DNA of 5,593 bases from Zestosphaera tikiterensis. Lineage in GTDB: Archaea; Thermoproteota; Thermoprotei_A; Sulfolobales; NBVN01. The position numbers and the translations under genes are program-made. Below are positions 355 to 4,114 of the stretch, in pieces; the stretch's first letter is position 1; every line of letters begins with the position of its first letter. The stretch covers positions 1 to 5,593 of the forward strand of contig NBVN01000017.1 of the NCBI GenBank assembly GCA_003056265.1, written 5' to 3'. Below the pieces are notes generated by a model, which worked only from the letters and a program-made list of their open reading frames with translations, had not been told where the DNA came from and ran no database searches.

Positions 355-645
355 ATGATATACATGAGGGTAGGAACTATGGGAACCATGATTAAACCTA
401 TTAAAGTTCCGGAACGTTCTGCCTTACCGGACTACGTGGAGAAAGTCGTTCTAGAGAACGGGTTAAAAGGAGGGATGATATTCGGGATAGGAGGGTTTGA
501 AAAAGCCGAGATTGCTTTCTACAACACGCTAACTCAAAAATACGTGGTTAAGGAATACGTAAGTAAGGAAAACAAAATACTTGAAGTGCTCTCGCTTTCA
601 GGTTTCTACAACAGAAAGCGTTCTCCAGATCACGGTATTCCTTGA
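355..645 (+). pseudogene. PPC/DUF296-domain protein, 5' fragment. Native codons run 355-616; from 617 the ORF reads into inserted DNA and stops at 643-645.
   Basis: The translation MIYMRVGTMGTMIKPIKVPERSALPDYVEKVVLENGLKGGMIFGIGGFEKAEIAFYNTLTQKYVVKEYVSKENKILEVLSLSGFYNR has the GIGG...A...Y...(I/L)E(V/I)LSLSG signature of PPC (DUF296) domains. It lacks the following HxH / GGHL half. The last 10 codons (KRSPDHGIP*) are foreign. Confidence 0.8.
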
Positions 646-677
646 TATTCTTAATTACTTTTAGTTCCGTGGTCTGG
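625..677 (+). repeat. Subterminal inverted repeat / long hairpin at the left edge of the insertion.
   Basis: CCAGATCACGG (625-635) pairs with CCGTGGTCTGG (667-677). This gives 11 bp with one T-G wobble on the plus strand (C-A on the minus strand) and a 31-nt A+T-rich loop. The hairpin starts 8 nt inside the insertion boundary. Confidence 0.5.
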
Positions 678-778
678 TTCATCACGTTTCCTCTCGGGGC
701 CCCCCTCACCGCAGTAGCTCTGCTCTAGTTGCCTAGAGCTCCACAGCCCTACGGATCTCGGAACCCCGAGGTCACCAA
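678..778 (-). ncRNA. Candidate structured RNA 'A' of unknown family inside the 235-bp module. Strand is uncertain.
   Basis: This is a G+C-rich island in A+T-rich context. A perfect 7-bp hairpin GCTCTAG/CTAGAGC (722-728 / 733-739) has a loop that reads GCAA (GNRA) on the minus strand. A second hairpin is CTCGG-AACC-CCGAG (757-770). The minus strand carries a GUGAUGA motif (reverse complement of 680-686). The minus-strand start region AACTTATAAATGTATTGG resembles that of RNA 'B'. Counter-evidence: the 754-773 hairpin extends with a T-G wobble only on the plus strand. Confidence 0.3.
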
Positions 779-844
779 TACATTTATAAGTTTAAAAGTT
801 TCAAGTAATTAAGACCTATTCACAATATCTTAGGGTTTCAATAC

Positions 845-851
845 CTTAGAA
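845..851 (+). repeat. CTTAGAA heptamer abutting the IS left end. It is a candidate target/TAM-type motif and is identical to the IS terminal heptamer at 2322-2328.
   Basis: The 7-nt identity is exact. Copy one sits 4 nt upstream of the left subterminal hairpin. Copy two forms the last 7 nt of the insertion, 13 nt after the right subterminal hairpin. Confidence 0.5.
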
Positions 852-855
852 ACAG

Positions 856-1019: not shown

Positions 1020-2300
1020 AAATGTAGGAGGGTTAGTGTCGTTAGACTAGTACTAGATAATGAATCTGAAGTAAGGTTAAAGGCCCTATGTAGCTTAACA
1101 TCTAAGCTGTGGAATGAAGTAAACTACGTTAGGAGACGTCAATTCTTCAAAGGAAAAGGAGTTGATTTAAAGGAAACATATAGAGAGTTCTACGAGAAGT
1201 ATAAATCGTTGATAGGTTCTGTGACAGCTCAGCAAGTACTTAATAAGAATGGTGAAGCATGGAGATCGTTCTTCAGCCTACTGAAAGCTAAGAAAGAAGG
1301 AAAGCTACCACCATACATAGCAAAAGTCAACCCACCCGGATATAAAAAGAGAGGGAAAGCTAGAGAGTTATGGGTTGTGTTGAGAAACGATCAGTATAGG
1401 ATTGAAGGAAATAAGATAGTTCTGAAGGGACTGGGAGCCGTAGGGAGGATAGAGATGAAGTACAGAGGGTTAATCCACTTAAAGGGTAAGCAGGGCAGGA
1501 TTGAAATACATTACGATGCCGACTCTAAGAAATGGTATGCATACATATCATTCGAAGTTTATGAGAAAGCTGTTAGAGGTGTGTGGAGGAAGGTTCCTCA
1601 GGCTCCCAAAGGCGATTTGAGGGCTGGAGTGGATATTGGTGTGAATAATTTATTCGCAGTATACGTTGAGAACGGGACATCGCTACTTATTAACGGCAGA
1701 CCGCTTAAAGCTATATCCCACTACTGGAGGGAGAGGATCGCTAAATATCAAAACATTATTAACAAGTATGGTATTAAGTCTTCACGAAAGCTTAGGCTAA
1801 TGTACAGTAAGTGGCGTAGGGAGGTGAAAAGCTTCATAAACACACAAATTAGAAGACTCGTTGAGCGACTCTACGGGAGTGGAGTTTCAGTAATTTACGT
1901 TGGCTACCCGAAGAACATCGCCCAGGAGAGCGGAAACTTCAACACTGTTCAGGTGTGGAGCTACGGATACCTGTTGAGGAGATTAAACGAAGTTAGTGAA
2001 GAATATGGGGTAGCGGTATTATTCGTTGATGAATCCTACACATCTACAACATGCTCAATACACGGCGATAGTTGCGGAAAAAGAATAACGAGAGGACTAT
2101 TTAAATGTACGAAACTGAACAAAGTATTCAATGCAGACATAACAGCGGCATACAACATCTTAATCAAAGGCTTAACCATAACCCCAAACCCCCTAGAAGG
2201 GGTAGGGGTAATGGGCTGGAAACCCAGCCCGGGGCTAAACGAAGCGAATGTAGCCCCAAACCTCCCCACCCTAACAACACCAAGAACCCCCACCCTTTAA
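921..2300 (+). CDS. tnpB: TnpB (IS605 OrfB-type RNA-guided RuvC nuclease). The true start codon is unresolved: in-frame GTGs lie at 921, 942 and 966, and the recognisable TnpB sequence begins at about 1026.
   Basis: The N-terminal region RRVSVVRLVLDNESEVRLKALCSLTSKLWNEVNY is typical of TnpB. RuvC-I is AGVDIGVNNLFAV, with D at 1632-1634. FVDESYTSTTCSIHGDSCGK...C is the zinc-ribbon region. RuvC-III is FNADITAAYNIL, with D at 2136-2138. The ORF is intact, with no frameshift or internal stop. Confidence 0.88.
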   Translation: MEGDPQAVGEGCGLEGVSCHTSLSSLCPPRLVPKCRRVSVVRLVLDNESEVRLKALCSLTSKLWNEVNYVRRRQFFKGKGVDLKETYREFYEKYKSLIGSVTAQQVLNKNGEAWRSFFSLLKAKKEGKLPPYIAKVNPPGYKKRGKARELWVVLRNDQYRIEGNKIVLKGLGAVGRIEMKYRGLIHLKGKQGRIEIHYDADSKKWYAYISFEVYEKAVRGVWRKVPQAPKGDLRAGVDIGVNNLFAVYVENGTSLLINGRPLKAISHYWRERIAKYQNIINKYGIKSSRKLRLMYSKWRREVKSFINTQIRRLVERLYGSGVSVIYVGYPKNIAQESGNFNTVQVWSYGYLLRRLNEVSEEYGVAVLFVDESYTSTTCSIHGDSCGKRITRGLFKCTKLNKVFNADITAAYNILIKGLTITPNPLEGVGVMGWKPSPGLNEANVAPNLPTLTTPRTPTL

Positions 2301-2348
2301 AGGCGGGGAGGAGGTCAGATGCTTAGAAGCGATGGTAGGATATTCACG
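2186..2348 (+). ncRNA. Candidate omega-RNA (right-end RNA). The scaffold overlaps the tnpB 3' end and the right end of the IS, and is followed by about 20 nt of flank-derived guide.
   Basis: G+C rises sharply over the last ~110 nt of tnpB. A three-way junction can be drawn from three elements: a closing stem 2199-2208 / 2264-2272; the hairpin GGGCTGG-AAAC-CCAGCCC (2213-2230); and the hairpin GGGGCTA-13 nt-TAGCCCC (2231-2257). The hairpin at 2288-2308 follows. The IS ends at 2328, so the guide would be GCGATGGTAGGATATTCACG (2329-2348). The placement follows the established TnpB/omega-RNA architecture. The RNA ends are not determinable from sequence. Confidence 0.55.
2288..2308 (+). repeat. Right-end subterminal hairpin of the IS. 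The tnpB stop codon lies in its loop.
   Basis: CCCCACC (2288-2294) pairs with GGCGGGG (2302-2308), with one A-C mismatch on the plus strand that becomes G-U on the minus strand. The loop is CTTTAAA. The arms match the left-end hairpin at 856-875. Confidence 0.55.
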
Positions 2349-2471
2349 CATATCCACGTAGTTTTAGGCTTAGATCATGACGTCTTATGTGGTGGTCATT
2401 TAATAAGAGGTTTTGTAAAACCTCAGGTTGAGGCCTTCCTCGTGGAGGTTGCTGACGGCTCTCCGCCATGA
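2329..2471 (+). pseudogene. PPC/DUF296-domain protein, 3' fragment.
   Basis: In frame with the 5' fragment once 617-2328 is removed, it reads (S)DGRIFTHIHVVLGLDHDVLCGGHLIRGFVKPQVEAFLVEVADGSPP*. This carries the HxH...GGHL half of the PPC domain. The stop TGA is at 2469-2471. Confidence 0.8.
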
Positions 2472-2610
2472 ATGGCGGAGGTTCTCCCCCTAGGGCTTCC
2501 ATCACCTTTCTGAAGCCCCTCACCGGGAGTGCATCACCCATCAGTTCCCGCCGTCAGCTCCGGGAAGGTGTGGGACTCATCCCAAGCTACGGTTACCCAC
2601 ACCCAACCCA
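2451..2610 (-). ncRNA. Candidate structured RNA 'B' of unknown family, with two K-loop/K-turn-like motifs (possible L7Ae sites).
   Basis: On the minus strand the 5' hairpin is GGGTGTGGG/CCCACACCT (2604-2596 paired with 2574-2566; 8 Watson-Crick pairs plus one G-U) with a GGG/CCC extension. A 9-bp helix GCTGACGGC/GCCGTCAGC (2558-2550 / 2459-2451) then encloses three hairpins. These are GGGA..CUGA-UGG-GUGAUG..UCCC (2549-2525), GGGCUUC-AGAAAGGUGAUG-GAAGCCC (2518-2493) and CUCCGCCA-UUCA-UGGCGGAG (2480-2461). The start is predicted from TATA 2640-2633 plus 22 nt. The 3' end is undefined, but a hairpin plus T-run at 2424-2403 is possible. Confidence 0.45.
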
Positions 2611-2632
2611 ATACATATTAAGTTAGAGAAAG

Positions 2633-2666
2633 CTTATAAACATTTACCCCGCCTTAAAAGACGGAG
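2633..2666 (-). promoter_or_regulatory. Hairpin plus TTTATAAG promoter module driving RNA 'B'. It is homologous to the IS left-end module at 856-888.
   Basis: The minus strand reads CTCCGTC-TTTTAA-GGCGGGG (2666-2647; 7 bp, 2 G-U), then TAAATG, then TTTATAAG (2640-2633), then 22 nt, then TGGGTTGGGTGTGG. The IS has CCTCGTC-TTTTGT-GGTGGGG, AAGGG, TTTATAAG, 22 nt, GGGGCTGGTTGTGG. Confidence 0.5.
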
Positions 2667-2761
2667 CCTCAATGATTGGTGAGGTTCTTAAGCAGGAGTT
2701 TAAGCATAGGGACGTAAAGACGTGAGTGTGGAAAGCCTTACTCGTCGATGGGGTCGTGTTT

Positions 2762-4114
2762 ATGGGGAGGAAGTCGGTGTGTATTGTTGGGGGTGGTCTT
2801 GCAGGCCTATCCACAGCTTACCACCTCCTTATTAAGGGTGTGAAGGACATTACTTTGATTGAGTTAAGCGATAGAGTTGGCGGCCTTCTAAAGTCTGAAG
2901 TTATCTCAGGATATACATTCGACGTCGGCGGTTCGCACATATTATTTAGTAAGAATTTAAGGACTCTTAACGAAATGCTTAACTTACTTAAGTGGGATGT
3001 GGTTAAACATTATAGGAATGCTAAGGTATTCTACAAAGGAACTTTCGTGAAATACCCGTTTGAGAATGGGTTAGGTGACCTACCCCCTGAGGAAAGGTTT
3101 GAATGCGTGTGGGATTTAATTAATACCTACGTTAAGAGAGTTAAGGGTGAGTTACCACAACCTAAGAATTTCCGTGAGTGGATAGTCTACGTGTTTGGAA
3201 ACGCTATAGCGAGTAAGTACTTAATACCTTATAATGAGAAGATATGGAAGGTGGACTTAAGCGAAGTAAGTCTTGAGTGGGTTGAGGGAAGGGTTCCAAA
3301 CCCACCTTTAGAAGACGTCGTTAAAAGTGCTGTAGGTTTAAGCGTAGAGGGTTATACACATCAACTTAATTTTTACTACCCATCATCAGGCGGTATAGAG
3401 TCTTTAGCTAAGGCGTTAAGCAAGGAAATCATCAACAAAGGCGTTGAGGTTTTGTTAAACAAGCCTGTGAAGCTTATCCGTAAATCAATAAACGGTATGT
3501 TGTTAGTTGAAGCTGAAGGTGTTGAGAAGGTTTGCGATGCGGTGGTGTATACAGCGCCTTTAAATAGATCTGCTGAAGTCCTAAGTGAGTTACTTAACGA
3601 CTTAAGCAATTCTTTAAAGGCTTTAAGATCCGTTCCCTTAGCGGTCGTGGGGTTGGCGGTAAGGGGGGAGGCGCTACCCTACCATTGGGTTTACTTCCCA
3701 AGCAGTAAGGAGTTATTCCATAGAGTTGCTATATTAAGTAACTTCTCACGAAGTAACGCTCCTGAAGGTGGTGTAGCGTTAATAGCTGAGGTCTCCTTCA
3801 GAAGTTTAGATGAGATGAACGCCGTAAGCGATGATGAACTCATTCATAAGGTTTACCAAGATTTAGAAGGGTCAGGTCTTGTAAGAAATCCAAAGCTGGA
3901 GTTCGGGGTTGTGCGACGTTGGGCTGACGCCTACATAATATACGACACTATTAGAAGCTCAGTTTTAAAGGAGGTCGTTAATAAGTTGAGGAAATACGGT
4001 GTCTACCCACACGGAAGGTTTGGTTCTTGGGAGTATTTAAACATGGATGCCGTATATGAGAAGTCCGCGAAGTTAGCGGATGAGGTTGTGACGTATTTAA
4101 CTAGGGCTTCCTAA
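2762..4114 (+). CDS. FAD-dependent oxidoreductase of the amine-oxidase / protoporphyrinogen-oxidase (HemY-like) / UDP-galactopyranose-mutase-like superfamily.
   Basis: The N-terminal dinucleotide-binding motif is SVCIVGGGLAGLSTAY...ELSDRVGG. Other matching motifs are FDVGGSHILFS, NFREWIVYVFGNAIASKYLIPYNEKIWKVDLSEVSLEWV, FYYPSSGGIESL and the C-terminal HGRFGSWEYLNMD. The ORF track starts at GTG 2726. ATG 2762 places GxGxxG 9 residues from the N-terminus and is preferred. The specific substrate cannot be called. Confidence 0.8.
   Translation: MGRKSVCIVGGGLAGLSTAYHLLIKGVKDITLIELSDRVGGLLKSEVISGYTFDVGGSHILFSKNLRTLNEMLNLLKWDVVKHYRNAKVFYKGTFVKYPFENGLGDLPPEERFECVWDLINTYVKRVKGELPQPKNFREWIVYVFGNAIASKYLIPYNEKIWKVDLSEVSLEWVEGRVPNPPLEDVVKSAVGLSVEGYTHQLNFYYPSSGGIESLAKALSKEIINKGVEVLLNKPVKLIRKSINGMLLVEAEGVEKVCDAVVYTAPLNRSAEVLSELLNDLSNSLKALRSVPLAVVGLAVRGEALPYHWVYFPSSKELFHRVAILSNFSRSNAPEGGVALIAEVSFRSLDEMNAVSDDELIHKVYQDLEGSGLVRNPKLEFGVVRRWADAYIIYDTIRSSVLKEVVNKLRKYGVYPHGRFGSWEYLNMDAVYEKSAKLADEVVTYLTRAS

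What the first reader, a model, noticed from the sequence alone, without database searches (positions are those of the whole stretch)
2451..2610. Unassigned, highly structured ~160-nt RNA candidate with two K-loop-like motifs, overlapping the PPC stop codon in antisense
On the minus strand, the region between the PPC gene and the oxidoreductase gene folds into two parts:
- a 5' hairpin;
- a multiloop closed by a perfect 9-bp helix (2451-2459 / 2550-2558), containing three perfect-stem hairpins.

Two of the hairpin loops carry GA...GUGAUG arrangements:
- CUGA-UGG-GUGAUG;
- AGA-AAG-GUGAUG.

These resemble box C'/D'-type K-loops bound by archaeal L7Ae. The motifs exist only on the minus strand.

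The third hairpin (2461-2480) has the PPC stop codon TGA (2469-2471) in its loop. The RNA therefore overlaps the last ~21 nt of the PPC CDS in antisense, or the element supplied the present C-terminus (ADGSPP*).

I could not match it to SRP RNA, RNase P RNA, or canonical C/D or H/ACA sRNAs.
Basis: partly seen in the sequence, partly recalled or inferred. Interest (0 to 1): 0.65.

Follow-up and report, generated by a model that had tools for sequence, protein, structure and literature searches.

The report
Mobile mini-transposon carrying a guide-like RNA
The structured ~160-nt RNA is real, but it is the RNA module of a 227-bp protein-less mini-transposon (a PATE of the IS200/IS605 family) derived from a TnpB guide RNA, so it is a new member of a known kind rather than a new class of RNA.

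Summary
Window 2610..2451 (minus strand) encodes a highly structured RNA with two CUGA-N3-GUGAUG motifs, and no Rfam family reaches threshold.

It is not an orphan RNA. It fills most of a 227-bp insertion (2452..2678) that is absent from a 98%-identical strain and from three other relatives. The insertion is present at the same site in four other contigs, and a second copy sits about 5.9 kb away in one of them.

The insertion has the parts of an IS200/IS605 element:
- a left-end hairpin;
- a BRE/TATA promoter like that of neighbouring tnpB elements;
- a right-end UUCA hairpin ending GUCAGC.

So it is a PATE (palindrome-associated, protein-less transposable element). Inserting it created the ADGSPP* end of an already broken PCC-domain gene.

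A motif-based metagenome scan recovered five further lineages.

A model of the family matches tnpB-linked ωRNAs (29 bits, E 4e-7).

L7Ae binding is plausible and has a Pyrococcus precedent, but is untested. The TnpB partner is unknown.

The parts
2452..2678 (-). Whole 227-bp non-autonomous IS200/IS605 element (PATE). Its boundaries are ambiguous by 1-3 nt because CAA flanks both ends. If the conserved terminal C belongs to the element, it spans 2451-2677.
   Evidence: BLASTN and junction reading against the empty alleles L001, L002/L003 and L041, and the filled alleles L042-L045.
2679..2683 (-). Target/TAM-like motif CTCAC immediately 5' of the left end.
   Evidence: T(T/C)CAC(C) precedes the left end in the window, L090 and L140, and occurs at the empty site of the second copy in L002. 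The tnpB elements use TTAC/CTAC.
2647..2668 (-). Left-end subterminal imperfect hairpin GGCUCCGUCUUUUAAGGCGGGG.
   Evidence: It aligns with the left ends of tnpB elements in L011, L008, L007, L183 and the window's own IS. The right-end part of model R1 hits it.
2633..2647 (-). BRE-like GTAAAT plus TATA box TTTATAAG, predicting a transcription start near 2609.
   Evidence: The same TATA lies in the left end of related IS elements. It sits exactly 25 nt upstream of GUUGGG in 5 of 6 lineages. The start site is inferred, not measured.
2451..2610 (-). ωRNA-derived structured RNA scaffold of about 160 nt (the finding itself).
   Evidence: Folding, family alignment A6 and covariation, model R2 at 157.5 bits, and similarity to tnpB-linked ωRNAs.
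2566..2604 (-). P0 stem (2604-2596 with 2574-2566) enclosing a K-turn-like unit. That unit is degenerate here: AA at 2594-2593 where relatives have GA, and GAUGA at 2581-2577.
   Evidence: U-A/C-G double changes occur at two P0 pairs. Relatives read GGGC-GA-GCUU..AGGC-NNU-GA-GCCC.
2546..2565 (-). P2 hairpin (2565-2561 with 2550-2546). Its loop GAGCUGACGG carries the 5' strand of the pseudoknot.
   Evidence: Covariation U-A/C-G at the outer pair. This is the same position as hairpin 1 of HgcC, whose loop contains CUGAC.
2451..2458 (-). 3' strand of the pseudoknot (CCGUCAGC), pairing with 2558-2551.
   Evidence: Paired in 100% of cells across 8 sequences, with A-U to G.U and G-C to G.U changes. 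Equivalent pairings exist in HgcC, L183 and L028.
2532..2544 (-). K-loop-like motif 1, CUGA-UGG-GUGAUG, in the P2-P3 linker.
   Evidence: It is kept in all recovered relatives, but the search pattern required it.
2484..2529 (-). P3. Outer helix 2529-2525 with 2488-2484; inner helix 2519-2512 with 2499-2492; capped by K-loop-like motif 2, CAGA-AAG-GUGAUG (2512-2500).
   Evidence: Double changes in both helices; motif located.
2461..2480 (-). P4, the right-end subterminal hairpin with a UUCA tetraloop. On the plus strand its loop provides the TGA stop of the PCC fragment.
   Evidence: Covariation A-U/C-G and U-A/C-G. The UUCA RE-like tetraloop is described for IS1341-type transposase transcripts and the HgcC family in PMC4615843.
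2417..2450 (-). Flank that would be transcribed as the guide segment (AACCUCCACGAGGAAGGCC...), up to a UUUU run at 2420-2417. It is antisense to the PCC fragment.
   Evidence: Read from the sequence. The guide role is inferred by analogy with ωRNAs (PMC10055086).
610..2318 (+). Context: a tnpB-only IS200/IS605 element that splits the PCC gene. tnpB is the ORF 921-2300 and its ωRNA lies at 2168-2318. It carries a further 234-bp insertion at 620-853.
   Evidence: Pfam OrfB_IS605 plus Cas12f1-like TNB. R1 scores 135.7 bits on the ωRNA. Junctions.

Best explanation
Window 2452-2678 is a non-autonomous IS200/IS605-family element (a PATE, a palindrome-associated transposable element). Read on the minus strand, it consists of:
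- a left end with the family's subterminal hairpin;
- the family's BRE/TATA promoter;
- a ~160-nt structured RNA;
- a right-end hairpin ending GUCAGC.

Origin. It most likely arose from a tnpB element by deletion of almost the whole tnpB gene. That deletion fused the left-end promoter to the ωRNA region.

Shown here:
- It inserted 3' of a T(C/T)CAC motif into the 3' end of a PCC-domain gene.
- It replaced the last 15 codons of that gene with ADGSPP*.
- It is polymorphic between near-identical strains and is present at a second site.
- Its RNA belongs to a family conserved in at least six lineages with covarying helices.

Inferred:
- The RNA is transcribed from about 2609 on the minus strand.
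- It folds into P0, P2, P3 and P4, plus a pseudoknot between the P2 loop and the last bases of the scaffold.
- It continues into the flank (AACCUCCACG...), which would act as a guide.
- A TnpB encoded elsewhere could load this RNA in trans and cut the empty site (TAM plus flank), favouring retention of the element, as proposed for PATE-encoded ωRNAs.
- The CUGA-N3-RUGAUG motifs, and in relatives a K-turn in P0, probably recruit L7Ae to stabilise the fold at high temperature.
For: Mobility:
- Empty site CTCGTGGAGGTTG|GTGAGGTT in L001 (98% identical), L041 and L002/L003. Filled site in L042-L045.
- A second copy lies at L042 5941-5981 with a different flank; that site is empty in L002.
- Three contigs end, and one begins, inside the element, as expected for a repeat.

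Transposon ends:
- The left end aligns with the left ends of tnpB elements, including the TATA box.
- The right-end hairpin and GUCAG tail align with tnpB right ends.

Relation to ωRNAs:
- Rfam HgcC hits both the tnpB 3' end (21.6 bits) and the candidate (19 bits).
- The tnpB-family model R1 places its second-best window hit on the candidate, ending exactly at UCAG 2452.
- The candidate-family model R2 hits more than 12 tnpB right ends at their exact ends.
- R2 also hits the ωRNA of a second TnpB family: L183, 29.3 bits, E 3.6e-7. There P0 aligns to the RuvC-III coding part of tnpB.

RNA structure:
- 97.6% of cells are paired, against 37-51% for slid controls.
- 11 pairs carry double changes.
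- G.U pairs mark the minus strand.

Promoter: the TATA spacing is conserved, including in two copies that lack the left-end hairpin.

Literature:
- PATEs often encode ωRNAs that TnpB would act on in trans (PMC10055086).
- HgcC and PATE-derived RNAs are discussed in PMC4615843.
- OrfB-related repeat RNAs of P. abyssi have their own BRE/TATA and K-turns or K-loops that bind L7Ae (PMC3124441).
Against: - No cognate TnpB was found next to any of the six family lineages.
- Similarity to the neighbouring tnpB element's ωRNA is weak: 6.8 bits.
- The Rfam HgcC score is far below the gathering score: 19 against 50 bits.
- The best tnpB-linked relative (L183) lacks both K-loop motifs, so the scaffold has diverged and may no longer fit a TnpB.
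- Relatives were recovered with a pattern that required both K-loop motifs, so their conservation is not independent evidence.
- The P0 K-turn is degenerate in the window copy (AA instead of GA).
- There are no expression data, and the plus strand folds equally well.
Confidence: 0.6

Rival explanations
1. Domesticated or TnpB-independent small RNA. The element is a PATE by origin, but its RNA now works on its own as an L7Ae-bound RNP, for example as a regulator or scaffold. It would have gained K-turn/K-loop motifs after losing tnpB, and would not guide any nuclease.
For: - No tnpB lies next to any member.
- Two lineages (L097, L120) keep the promoter and RNA but lack the left-end hairpin.
- The K-loops and the P0 K-turn are absent from the tnpB-linked relatives L183 and L028.
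- The P. abyssi sRk RNAs are a precedent (PMC3124441).
Against: The pseudoknot and the invariant GAGCCGUCAGC tail, which in ωRNAs position the guide, are fully conserved. The 3' flank differs at every site, as expected for a guide and not for a fixed antisense target.
Confidence: 0.27
2. A DNA-level element only. This would be a MITE whose palindromes serve the Y1 transposase as single-stranded DNA hairpins, with any RNA fold incidental and no functional transcript.
For: Both strands fold equally well. IS200/IS605 transposition needs only the end hairpins (established knowledge; PMC10055086).
Against: - Internal helices that the transposase does not need covary and use G.U pairs that would be A.C on the other strand.
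- The BRE/TATA sits at a fixed 25-nt spacing.
- The RNA part is conserved in copies without the left-end hairpin.
Confidence: 0.08
3. A decaying solo right end of a dead tnpB element, or a canonical C/D-box sRNA, or a dedicated cis-antisense regulator of the PCC gene.
For: It lies next to a tnpB element, has box C/D-like motifs, and overlaps the PCC fragment in antisense.
Against: - All stems are perfect, the element length is the same across six lineages, and the helices covary. This argues against decay.
- There is no terminal C/D pair with a closing stem, and the 18-nt spacer between the motifs is base-paired in P3. This argues against a C/D guide.
- Copies sit at unrelated sites, and the PCC gene is already split by the IS. 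This argues against a PCC-specific role.
Confidence: 0.04

Closest known systems
TnpB ωRNA / reRNA of IS200/IS605 (IS1341-type) elements
   Same: - It occupies the right end and stops at the transposon boundary, followed by flank that would serve as the guide.
- It has a terminal hairpin with a UUCA-type loop.
- A pseudoknot links an upstream hairpin loop (CUGAC) to the GUCAG tail.
- The covariance-model match is reciprocal.
   Different: - There is no tnpB in cis, and it has its own promoter taken from the left end.
- The scaffold is strongly diverged: 6.8 bits with the neighbouring family's model and 29 bits at best to a tnpB-linked ωRNA.
- It carries extra K-loop-like motifs.
PATEs (palindrome-associated transposable elements), e.g. 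Halobacterium VNG_R0052 and the Geobacillus stearothermophilus PATEs
   Same: It is a left end fused to a right end with no ORF. It would be mobilised in trans, transcribed into a small RNA, and often carries an ωRNA (PMC4615843, PMC10055086).
   Different: This is a crenarchaeal (Zestosphaera-like) family with a long, 160-nt covarying RNA. Some copies appear to have lost the left-end hairpin.
Rfam HgcC (RF00062)
   Same: It is the only Rfam family with any signal. It shares a first hairpin with a CUGAC loop, a GAUG-rich linker, a UUCA/UUUA terminal hairpin and a GUCAG tail.
   Different: The score is 19 bits against a gathering score of 50, so it is not a member by Rfam's criterion. Relatives do not score better.
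Pyrococcus abyssi sRk48/sRk52 and sRkB/sRkC (PMC3124441)
   Same: These are repetitive intergenic RNAs related to the 3' ends of orphan OrfB (TnpB) genes. They have their own BRE/TATA and carry K-loops or K-turns that bind L7Ae in gel shifts and footprints.
   Different: They are unrelated in sequence: sRk52 ends ...AACCAGAAC and derives from IS607-type OrfB. They are euryarchaeal. L7Ae binding has not been tested for the present RNA.
Archaeal box C'/D' K-loops of C/D sRNAs
   Same: The CUGA - 3 nt - RUGAUG arrangement allows tandem sheared G.A pairs, a U.U (or A-U) pair and a C-G pair, capped by a 5-nt loop.
   Different: There are no terminal C/D boxes and no free 12-nt guides. The motifs are embedded in a larger pseudoknotted RNA.

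Membership tests
IS200/IS605 non-autonomous element (PATE) | Presence/absence polymorphism with a precise empty site and no target-site duplication. | tested here: met
   Empty in L001, L041 and L002/L003; filled in the window and L042-L045. Only a 3-nt CAA ambiguity remains at the junction.
IS200/IS605 non-autonomous element (PATE) | Left and right ends with subterminal imperfect hairpins like those of autonomous or tnpB-bearing relatives. | tested here: met
   Left-end alignment with L011, L008, L007, L183 and the window IS. Right-end hairpin and tail alignment.
IS200/IS605 non-autonomous element (PATE) | Insertion 3' of a conserved short target motif next to the left end. | tested here: met
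   T(T/C)CAC(C) at four independent sites. Resolution is limited to 1 nt.
IS200/IS605 non-autonomous element (PATE) | No protein-coding gene; more than one copy per genome. | tested here: met
   Indels among relatives are not multiples of three, and no conserved ORF exists. There are two sites on contig L042. Total copy number is unknown.
IS200/IS605 non-autonomous element (PATE) | Mobilisation by a Y1 TnpA supplied in trans. | not testable with these tools
   A tnpA+tnpB element of the same end type exists in a relative (L003). No tnpA is present in the window.
TnpB ωRNA | Sequence/structure homology to RNAs encoded at the 3' end of tnpB. | tested here: met
   R2 against L183/L184 scores 29.3 bits (E 3.6e-7) and against L028 18.9 bits, both ending at the right end of a Pfam-confirmed TnpB. 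The match to the neighbouring family is weak (6.8 bits).
TnpB ωRNA | Pseudoknot or long-range pairing directly upstream of a flank-derived guide. | tested here: met
   2558-2551 pairs with 2458-2451. It is 100% paired in 8 sequences with two wobble-compatible changes but no double change. The flanks differ at every site.
TnpB ωRNA | Physical and functional association with a TnpB nuclease. | tested here: not met
   No tnpB is adjacent in any of the six lineages. Association in trans cannot be tested here.
Rfam HgcC (RF00062) | Score at or above the curated gathering threshold (50 bits). | tested here: not met
   19.0 bits, E 0.045. No gathering-level hit.
L7Ae-binding K-turn/K-loop RNA | Tandem sheared G.A pairs next to a 3-nt bulge or loop in the proper strand polarity. 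| tested here: met
   Both motifs fit the box D'-loop-box C' form. Relatives also have a simple K-turn in P0, GGGC-GA-GCUU...AGGC-NNU-GA-GCCC. This is compatibility at sequence level only.
L7Ae-binding K-turn/K-loop RNA | Conservation of the motif in homologues found independently of it. | tested here: inconclusive
   Relatives were retrieved with a pattern that required both motifs. A motif-independent pattern scan found only chance hits. The P0 K-turn was not in the pattern; it is kept in 5 of 6 lineages but is degenerate in the window.
L7Ae-binding K-turn/K-loop RNA | Binding of L7Ae. | not testable with these tools
   The only precedent is in other OrfB-related RNAs (PMC3124441).
Box C/D sRNA | Terminal C and D boxes closed by a stem, an internal D'/C' pair, and about 12-nt single-stranded guides. 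| tested here: not met
   There is no terminal C/D pair. The 18-nt spacer between the motifs is paired in P3.

The most novel reading that the evidence does not exclude
A lineage of archaeal TnpB guide RNAs shed its nuclease gene, acquired up to three L7Ae-type K-turn/K-loop motifs, and now spreads as a self-transcribed mini-transposon. Its RNP (L7Ae plus RNA) would either program a TnpB in trans or have a TnpB-independent role. More broadly, L7Ae would be an unrecognised structural cofactor of archaeal ωRNA-type guide RNAs.
Probability: 0.25. Interest if true: 0.7.

Novelty: new member of a known kind. Interest (0 to 1): 0.42.

Why it matters
It turns an "unassigned RNA" into an annotated mobile element. 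It also explains three local oddities together: the long intergenic gap, the odd PCC C-terminus and the antisense overlap.

It defines a covarying RNA family that is not in Rfam: a PATE-borne, ωRNA-derived RNA in hyperthermophilic Crenarchaeota. The family can now be modelled and searched.

It also revives an observation that predates the recognition of ωRNAs: OrfB-related archaeal RNAs carry K-turns that bind L7Ae. The papers searched here do not connect this with TnpB biology. If L7Ae is part of archaeal TnpB/ωRNA particles, or replaces TnpB on orphan guide RNAs, that bears on how these guide RNAs fold at high temperature and on engineering thermostable TnpB editors.

Tried and rejected
Searches that found nothing useful:
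- Rfam at gathering score: nothing.
- Exact look-ups of the oxidoreductase with two start codons: not on record.
- Exact 25-mer of the right end in metagenome contigs: 0 hits. The filled alleles later proved to lie on contigs that the scan did not return.
- Three exact or gapped patterns in viral contigs: 0 hits.
- blastn of the element against plasmid and phage collections: nothing meaningful.
- Look-up of the spurious 52-aa ORF inside the element: none.
- A motif-independent pseudoknot pattern in viral contigs: 10 hits, all chance by R2.
- A TnpB search in viral contigs for the Acidianus-type TnpB: none.
- Acidilobus TnpB loci: no R2 match at their 3' ends.

Readings considered and rejected:
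- Canonical C/D sRNA.
- PCC-specific antisense RNA.
- Decayed solo right end.
- A K-turn in the P3 internal loop of the window copy. Its GGUGA/AGG has G, not A, at position 1n. The tnpB-linked relatives have UGUGA/AGA there, which is only K-turn-like.
- Homology of the 234-bp insertion at 620-853 to the PATE. Only an 18-nt promoter-like stretch is shared.

Full report
**1. What is in the window**

Pfam shows that the "PPC gene" is a PCC/DUF296-domain gene (PF03479) in two pieces. ORF 355-645 covers profile positions 5-73 and ORF 2319-2471 covers positions 74-115. Between them lies a TnpB gene (ORF 921-2300; OrfB_IS605 plus Cas12f1-like TNB). An amine-oxidase/FAD gene follows at 2726-4114.

They belong to the 3' fragment of a gene already split by an insertion sequence.

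**2. Checking the observation**

- The stated complementarities exist. 2451-2459 is the exact reverse complement of 2550-2558, and 2461-2480 is a perfect hairpin with TGA in its loop.
- The minus strand folds at -77.2 kcal/mol (z = -4.3). The plus strand folds at -71.7 kcal/mol (z = -5.4). Energy therefore shows structure but not strand.
- CWGANNNGTGATG occurs twice, on the minus strand only, against 0 expected in shuffles. The pattern was chosen after the fact.
- Rfam gives nothing at gathering score.
- At relaxed thresholds the only family with signal is HgcC (RF00062). It hits twice: 2211-2331(+), the 3' end of tnpB, at 21.6 bits, and 2444-2567(-), the candidate, at 19 bits.
- A UUCA "RE-like" tetraloop found in transcripts from the 3' ends of IS1341-type tnpB genes is also present in the HgcC family and in a PATE-derived RNA (PMC4615843).

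**3. The candidate sits in a mobile insertion**

Orthologous loci were fetched through the oxidoreductase.

- Relative to L002/L003 (about 84% identical, intact 134-aa PCC gene), the window carries the tnpB element (610-2318) and a separate 227-bp insertion (2452-2678).
- L001 is 98% identical and has the tnpB element, but it lacks the 227-bp insertion. Its sequence reads CTCGTGGAGGTTG|GTGAGGTTCTT.
- L041 carries a protein identical to one from Zestosphaera tikiterensis and is also empty at this site.
- The insertion is present at the same site in L042, and in L043-L045. The latter were found through the exact 50-aa product ending ADGSPP*.
- L045 carries the whole element with three substitutions. 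One turns an A-U pair of the long-range helix into G.U.
- Model R2 found a second, partial copy at the other end of contig L042 (5941-5981). Its flank is different (…GCCGUCAG|CUACUCAC), and the site is uninterrupted in L002.
- L043 and L044 end, and L042 begins and ends, inside the element, as expected for a repeat.
- The empty allele encodes …LVEVGEVLKQEFKHRDVKT*.

**4. Anatomy of the element (minus strand)**

The left end is TCAC|CAAUCAUUGAGGCUCCGUCUUUUAAGGCGGGGUAAAUGUUUAUAAGCUUU.

- It aligns with the left ends of tnpB elements, TTAC|AACTGAAAGCCTCGCCTTTTAAGGCGGGG…GTTTATAAG. These are L011, L008, L007, L183 and the window's own IS. The alignment includes the subterminal hairpin and the TATA box.
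- The right end (CUCCGCCAUUCAUGGCGGAG…GUCAGC) aligns with their right ends.
- The TATA box lies exactly 25 nt upstream of the conserved GUUGGG in five of six lineages.

Together these are the defining features of a PATE, a non-autonomous IS200/IS605 element. Meers et al. note that PATEs often encode ωRNAs that TnpB proteins encoded elsewhere would have to act on in trans (PMC10055086).

**5. A family of relatives and its structure**

The first exact-pattern scans found nothing. Most were chance hits.

BLASTN singled out six loci, falling into five lineages: L090, L097, L083/L127, L140 and L120. They are 71-76% identical to the candidate over the whole RNA. None has a tnpB next to it. Four have the left-end hairpin. 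Two (L097, L120) keep only the promoter and the RNA.

On the structure-blind MAFFT alignment A6, my model has seven helices: P0, a small stem inside P0, P2, a pseudoknot, P3-outer, P3-inner and P4. Counts:

| Measure | Model | Slid controls |
|---|---|---|
| Cells paired | 97.6% | 37-51% |
| Pairs with changes on both sides | 11 | 1-3 |

- No shuffle out of 500 reaches the observed covariation score.
- G.U pairs that would be A.C on the other strand identify the window's minus strand as the RNA strand.

**6. Relation to TnpB guide RNAs**

- Model R1 was built from 17 tnpB-linked right ends. It scores 135.7 bits on the window's own tnpB element and only 6.8 bits (E 0.034) on the candidate. That weak hit is still the second-best in the window and ends exactly at UCAG 2452.
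- The candidate-family model R2 hits more than a dozen tnpB right ends at their exact termini, at 15-25 bits.
- R2's best outside hit is the ωRNA of a second TnpB family: L183/L184 at 29.3 bits, E 3.6e-7. It also hits Acidianus copahuensis L028 at 18.9 bits. The L028 TnpB is confirmed by Pfam.
- In L183, P0 aligns with the part of tnpB that encodes the RuvC-III motif (EGDRDSIAVLNL).
- The L183 P2 loop (CUCUGAC) can pair with the GUCAG tail, and P3 has the same two-tier form.

This fits an origin by internal deletion of a tnpB element. The deletion would have fused the left-end promoter to the ωRNA region.

The pairing between the P2 loop and the tail recurs across the groups:

| Source | P2 loop | Tail |
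|---|---|---|
| HgcC consensus | CUGACC | GGUCAG |
| This family | GCUGRCGG | CYGUCAGC |
| L183 | CUGAC | GUCAG |

**7. The K-loop question**

- Both motifs fit the archaeal box D'-loop-box C' form. That form has C-G, U.U (A-U in motif 2), G.A and A.G pairs capped by five bases.
- Relatives add a simple K-turn in P0: GGGC-GA-GCUU…AGGC-NNU-GA-GCCC. It was not part of the search pattern and is present in five of six lineages. In the window copy it is degenerate (AA for GA).
- Conservation of the two K-loops cannot be judged without bias, because the search required them.
- The tnpB-linked relatives lack them. Those relatives have only a K-turn-like UGUGA/AGA internal loop in P3.
- The precedent is direct. 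In Pyrococcus abyssi, the repeat RNAs sRk48/52 and sRkB/C are related to the 3' ends of orphan OrfB genes and are transcribed from their own BRE/TATA. They carry a K-loop or two K-turns that bind L7Ae in gel shifts and footprints. The same paper notes similar L7Ae-bound, transposase-linked RNAs in Sulfolobus (PMC3124441).
- A search of the held papers found none linking natural ωRNA K-turns to L7Ae.

**8. Verdict**

The structured RNA is real, and its strand and ends were called almost exactly. It is not a new class of RNA. It is the RNA module of a PATE and derives from a TnpB ωRNA.

Its overlap with the PCC stop codon is an accident of insertion.

What is new is the family itself:
- it is not in Rfam;
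- its helices covary;
- it spans at least six lineages;
- it is rich in K-turn-type motifs.

Unknown are its TnpB partner, if any, and whether L7Ae binds. I rate it a new member of a known kind, of moderate interest.

Noticed in passing
window 620-853: A third insertion of 234 bp sits inside the left end of the tnpB element, between its first 10 nt and its hairpin, and is absent from L001. On the minus strand it shares AACTTATAAATGTATTGG with the PATE promoter region. It has a GC-rich structured core with a homologue in L009 3212-3272 and contains GUGAUGA. No Rfam match. It may have immobilised the IS.
   Followed up: partly
window 355-645 and 2319-2471: The PCC/DUF296-domain gene is a pseudogene. 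It is split by the tnpB element (610-2318, inserted after TCTAC) and truncated at its C-terminus by the PATE. Relatives L002/L003 have an intact 134-aa gene.
   Followed up: yes
L042 1-35 and 5941-5981; ends of L043 and L044: Contigs from independent assemblies break inside the PATE, and L042 has PATE fragments at both ends. This shows at least two copies about 5.9 kb apart in that genome.
   Followed up: yes
L140 1-60: The 3' half of the Rfam HgcC model (positions 71-130) matches the left end of a PATE (hairpin plus TATA region) at 34.3 bits. The left-end and right-end hairpins are therefore near-copies, and the HgcC model may partly describe transposon-end DNA signals.
   Followed up: no
alignment A3 (17 tnpB right ends), columns 119/160: In the tnpB-linked ωRNA family, the variable base in GGCGGNGAGG is compensated in both of its alternative partners: the long-range CCUCNCC and the right-end hairpin. 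This suggests a dual constraint from RNA fold and transposase DNA hairpin.
   Followed up: no
L120 7597-7726 (-): Another HgcC-like or right-end-like element (HgcC 27.5 bits, R2 17.2 bits) lies on the same contig as a family member. It overlaps the start of a 968-aa ORF.
   Followed up: no
L028 5013-6220 and L183 793-1965: A second TnpB family (369-396 aa; Acidianus copahuensis and a hot-spring metagenome) has an ωRNA with a CUGAC loop/GUCAG tail pseudoknot and a K-turn-like UGUGA/AGA internal loop. It shares the same left-end type as the first family.
   Followed up: partly
L001 1153-2649: In the 98%-identical strain the tnpB reading frame runs on past the window's stop codon (498 aa against 459 aa), through the right end and into the PCC fragment.
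   Followed up: no
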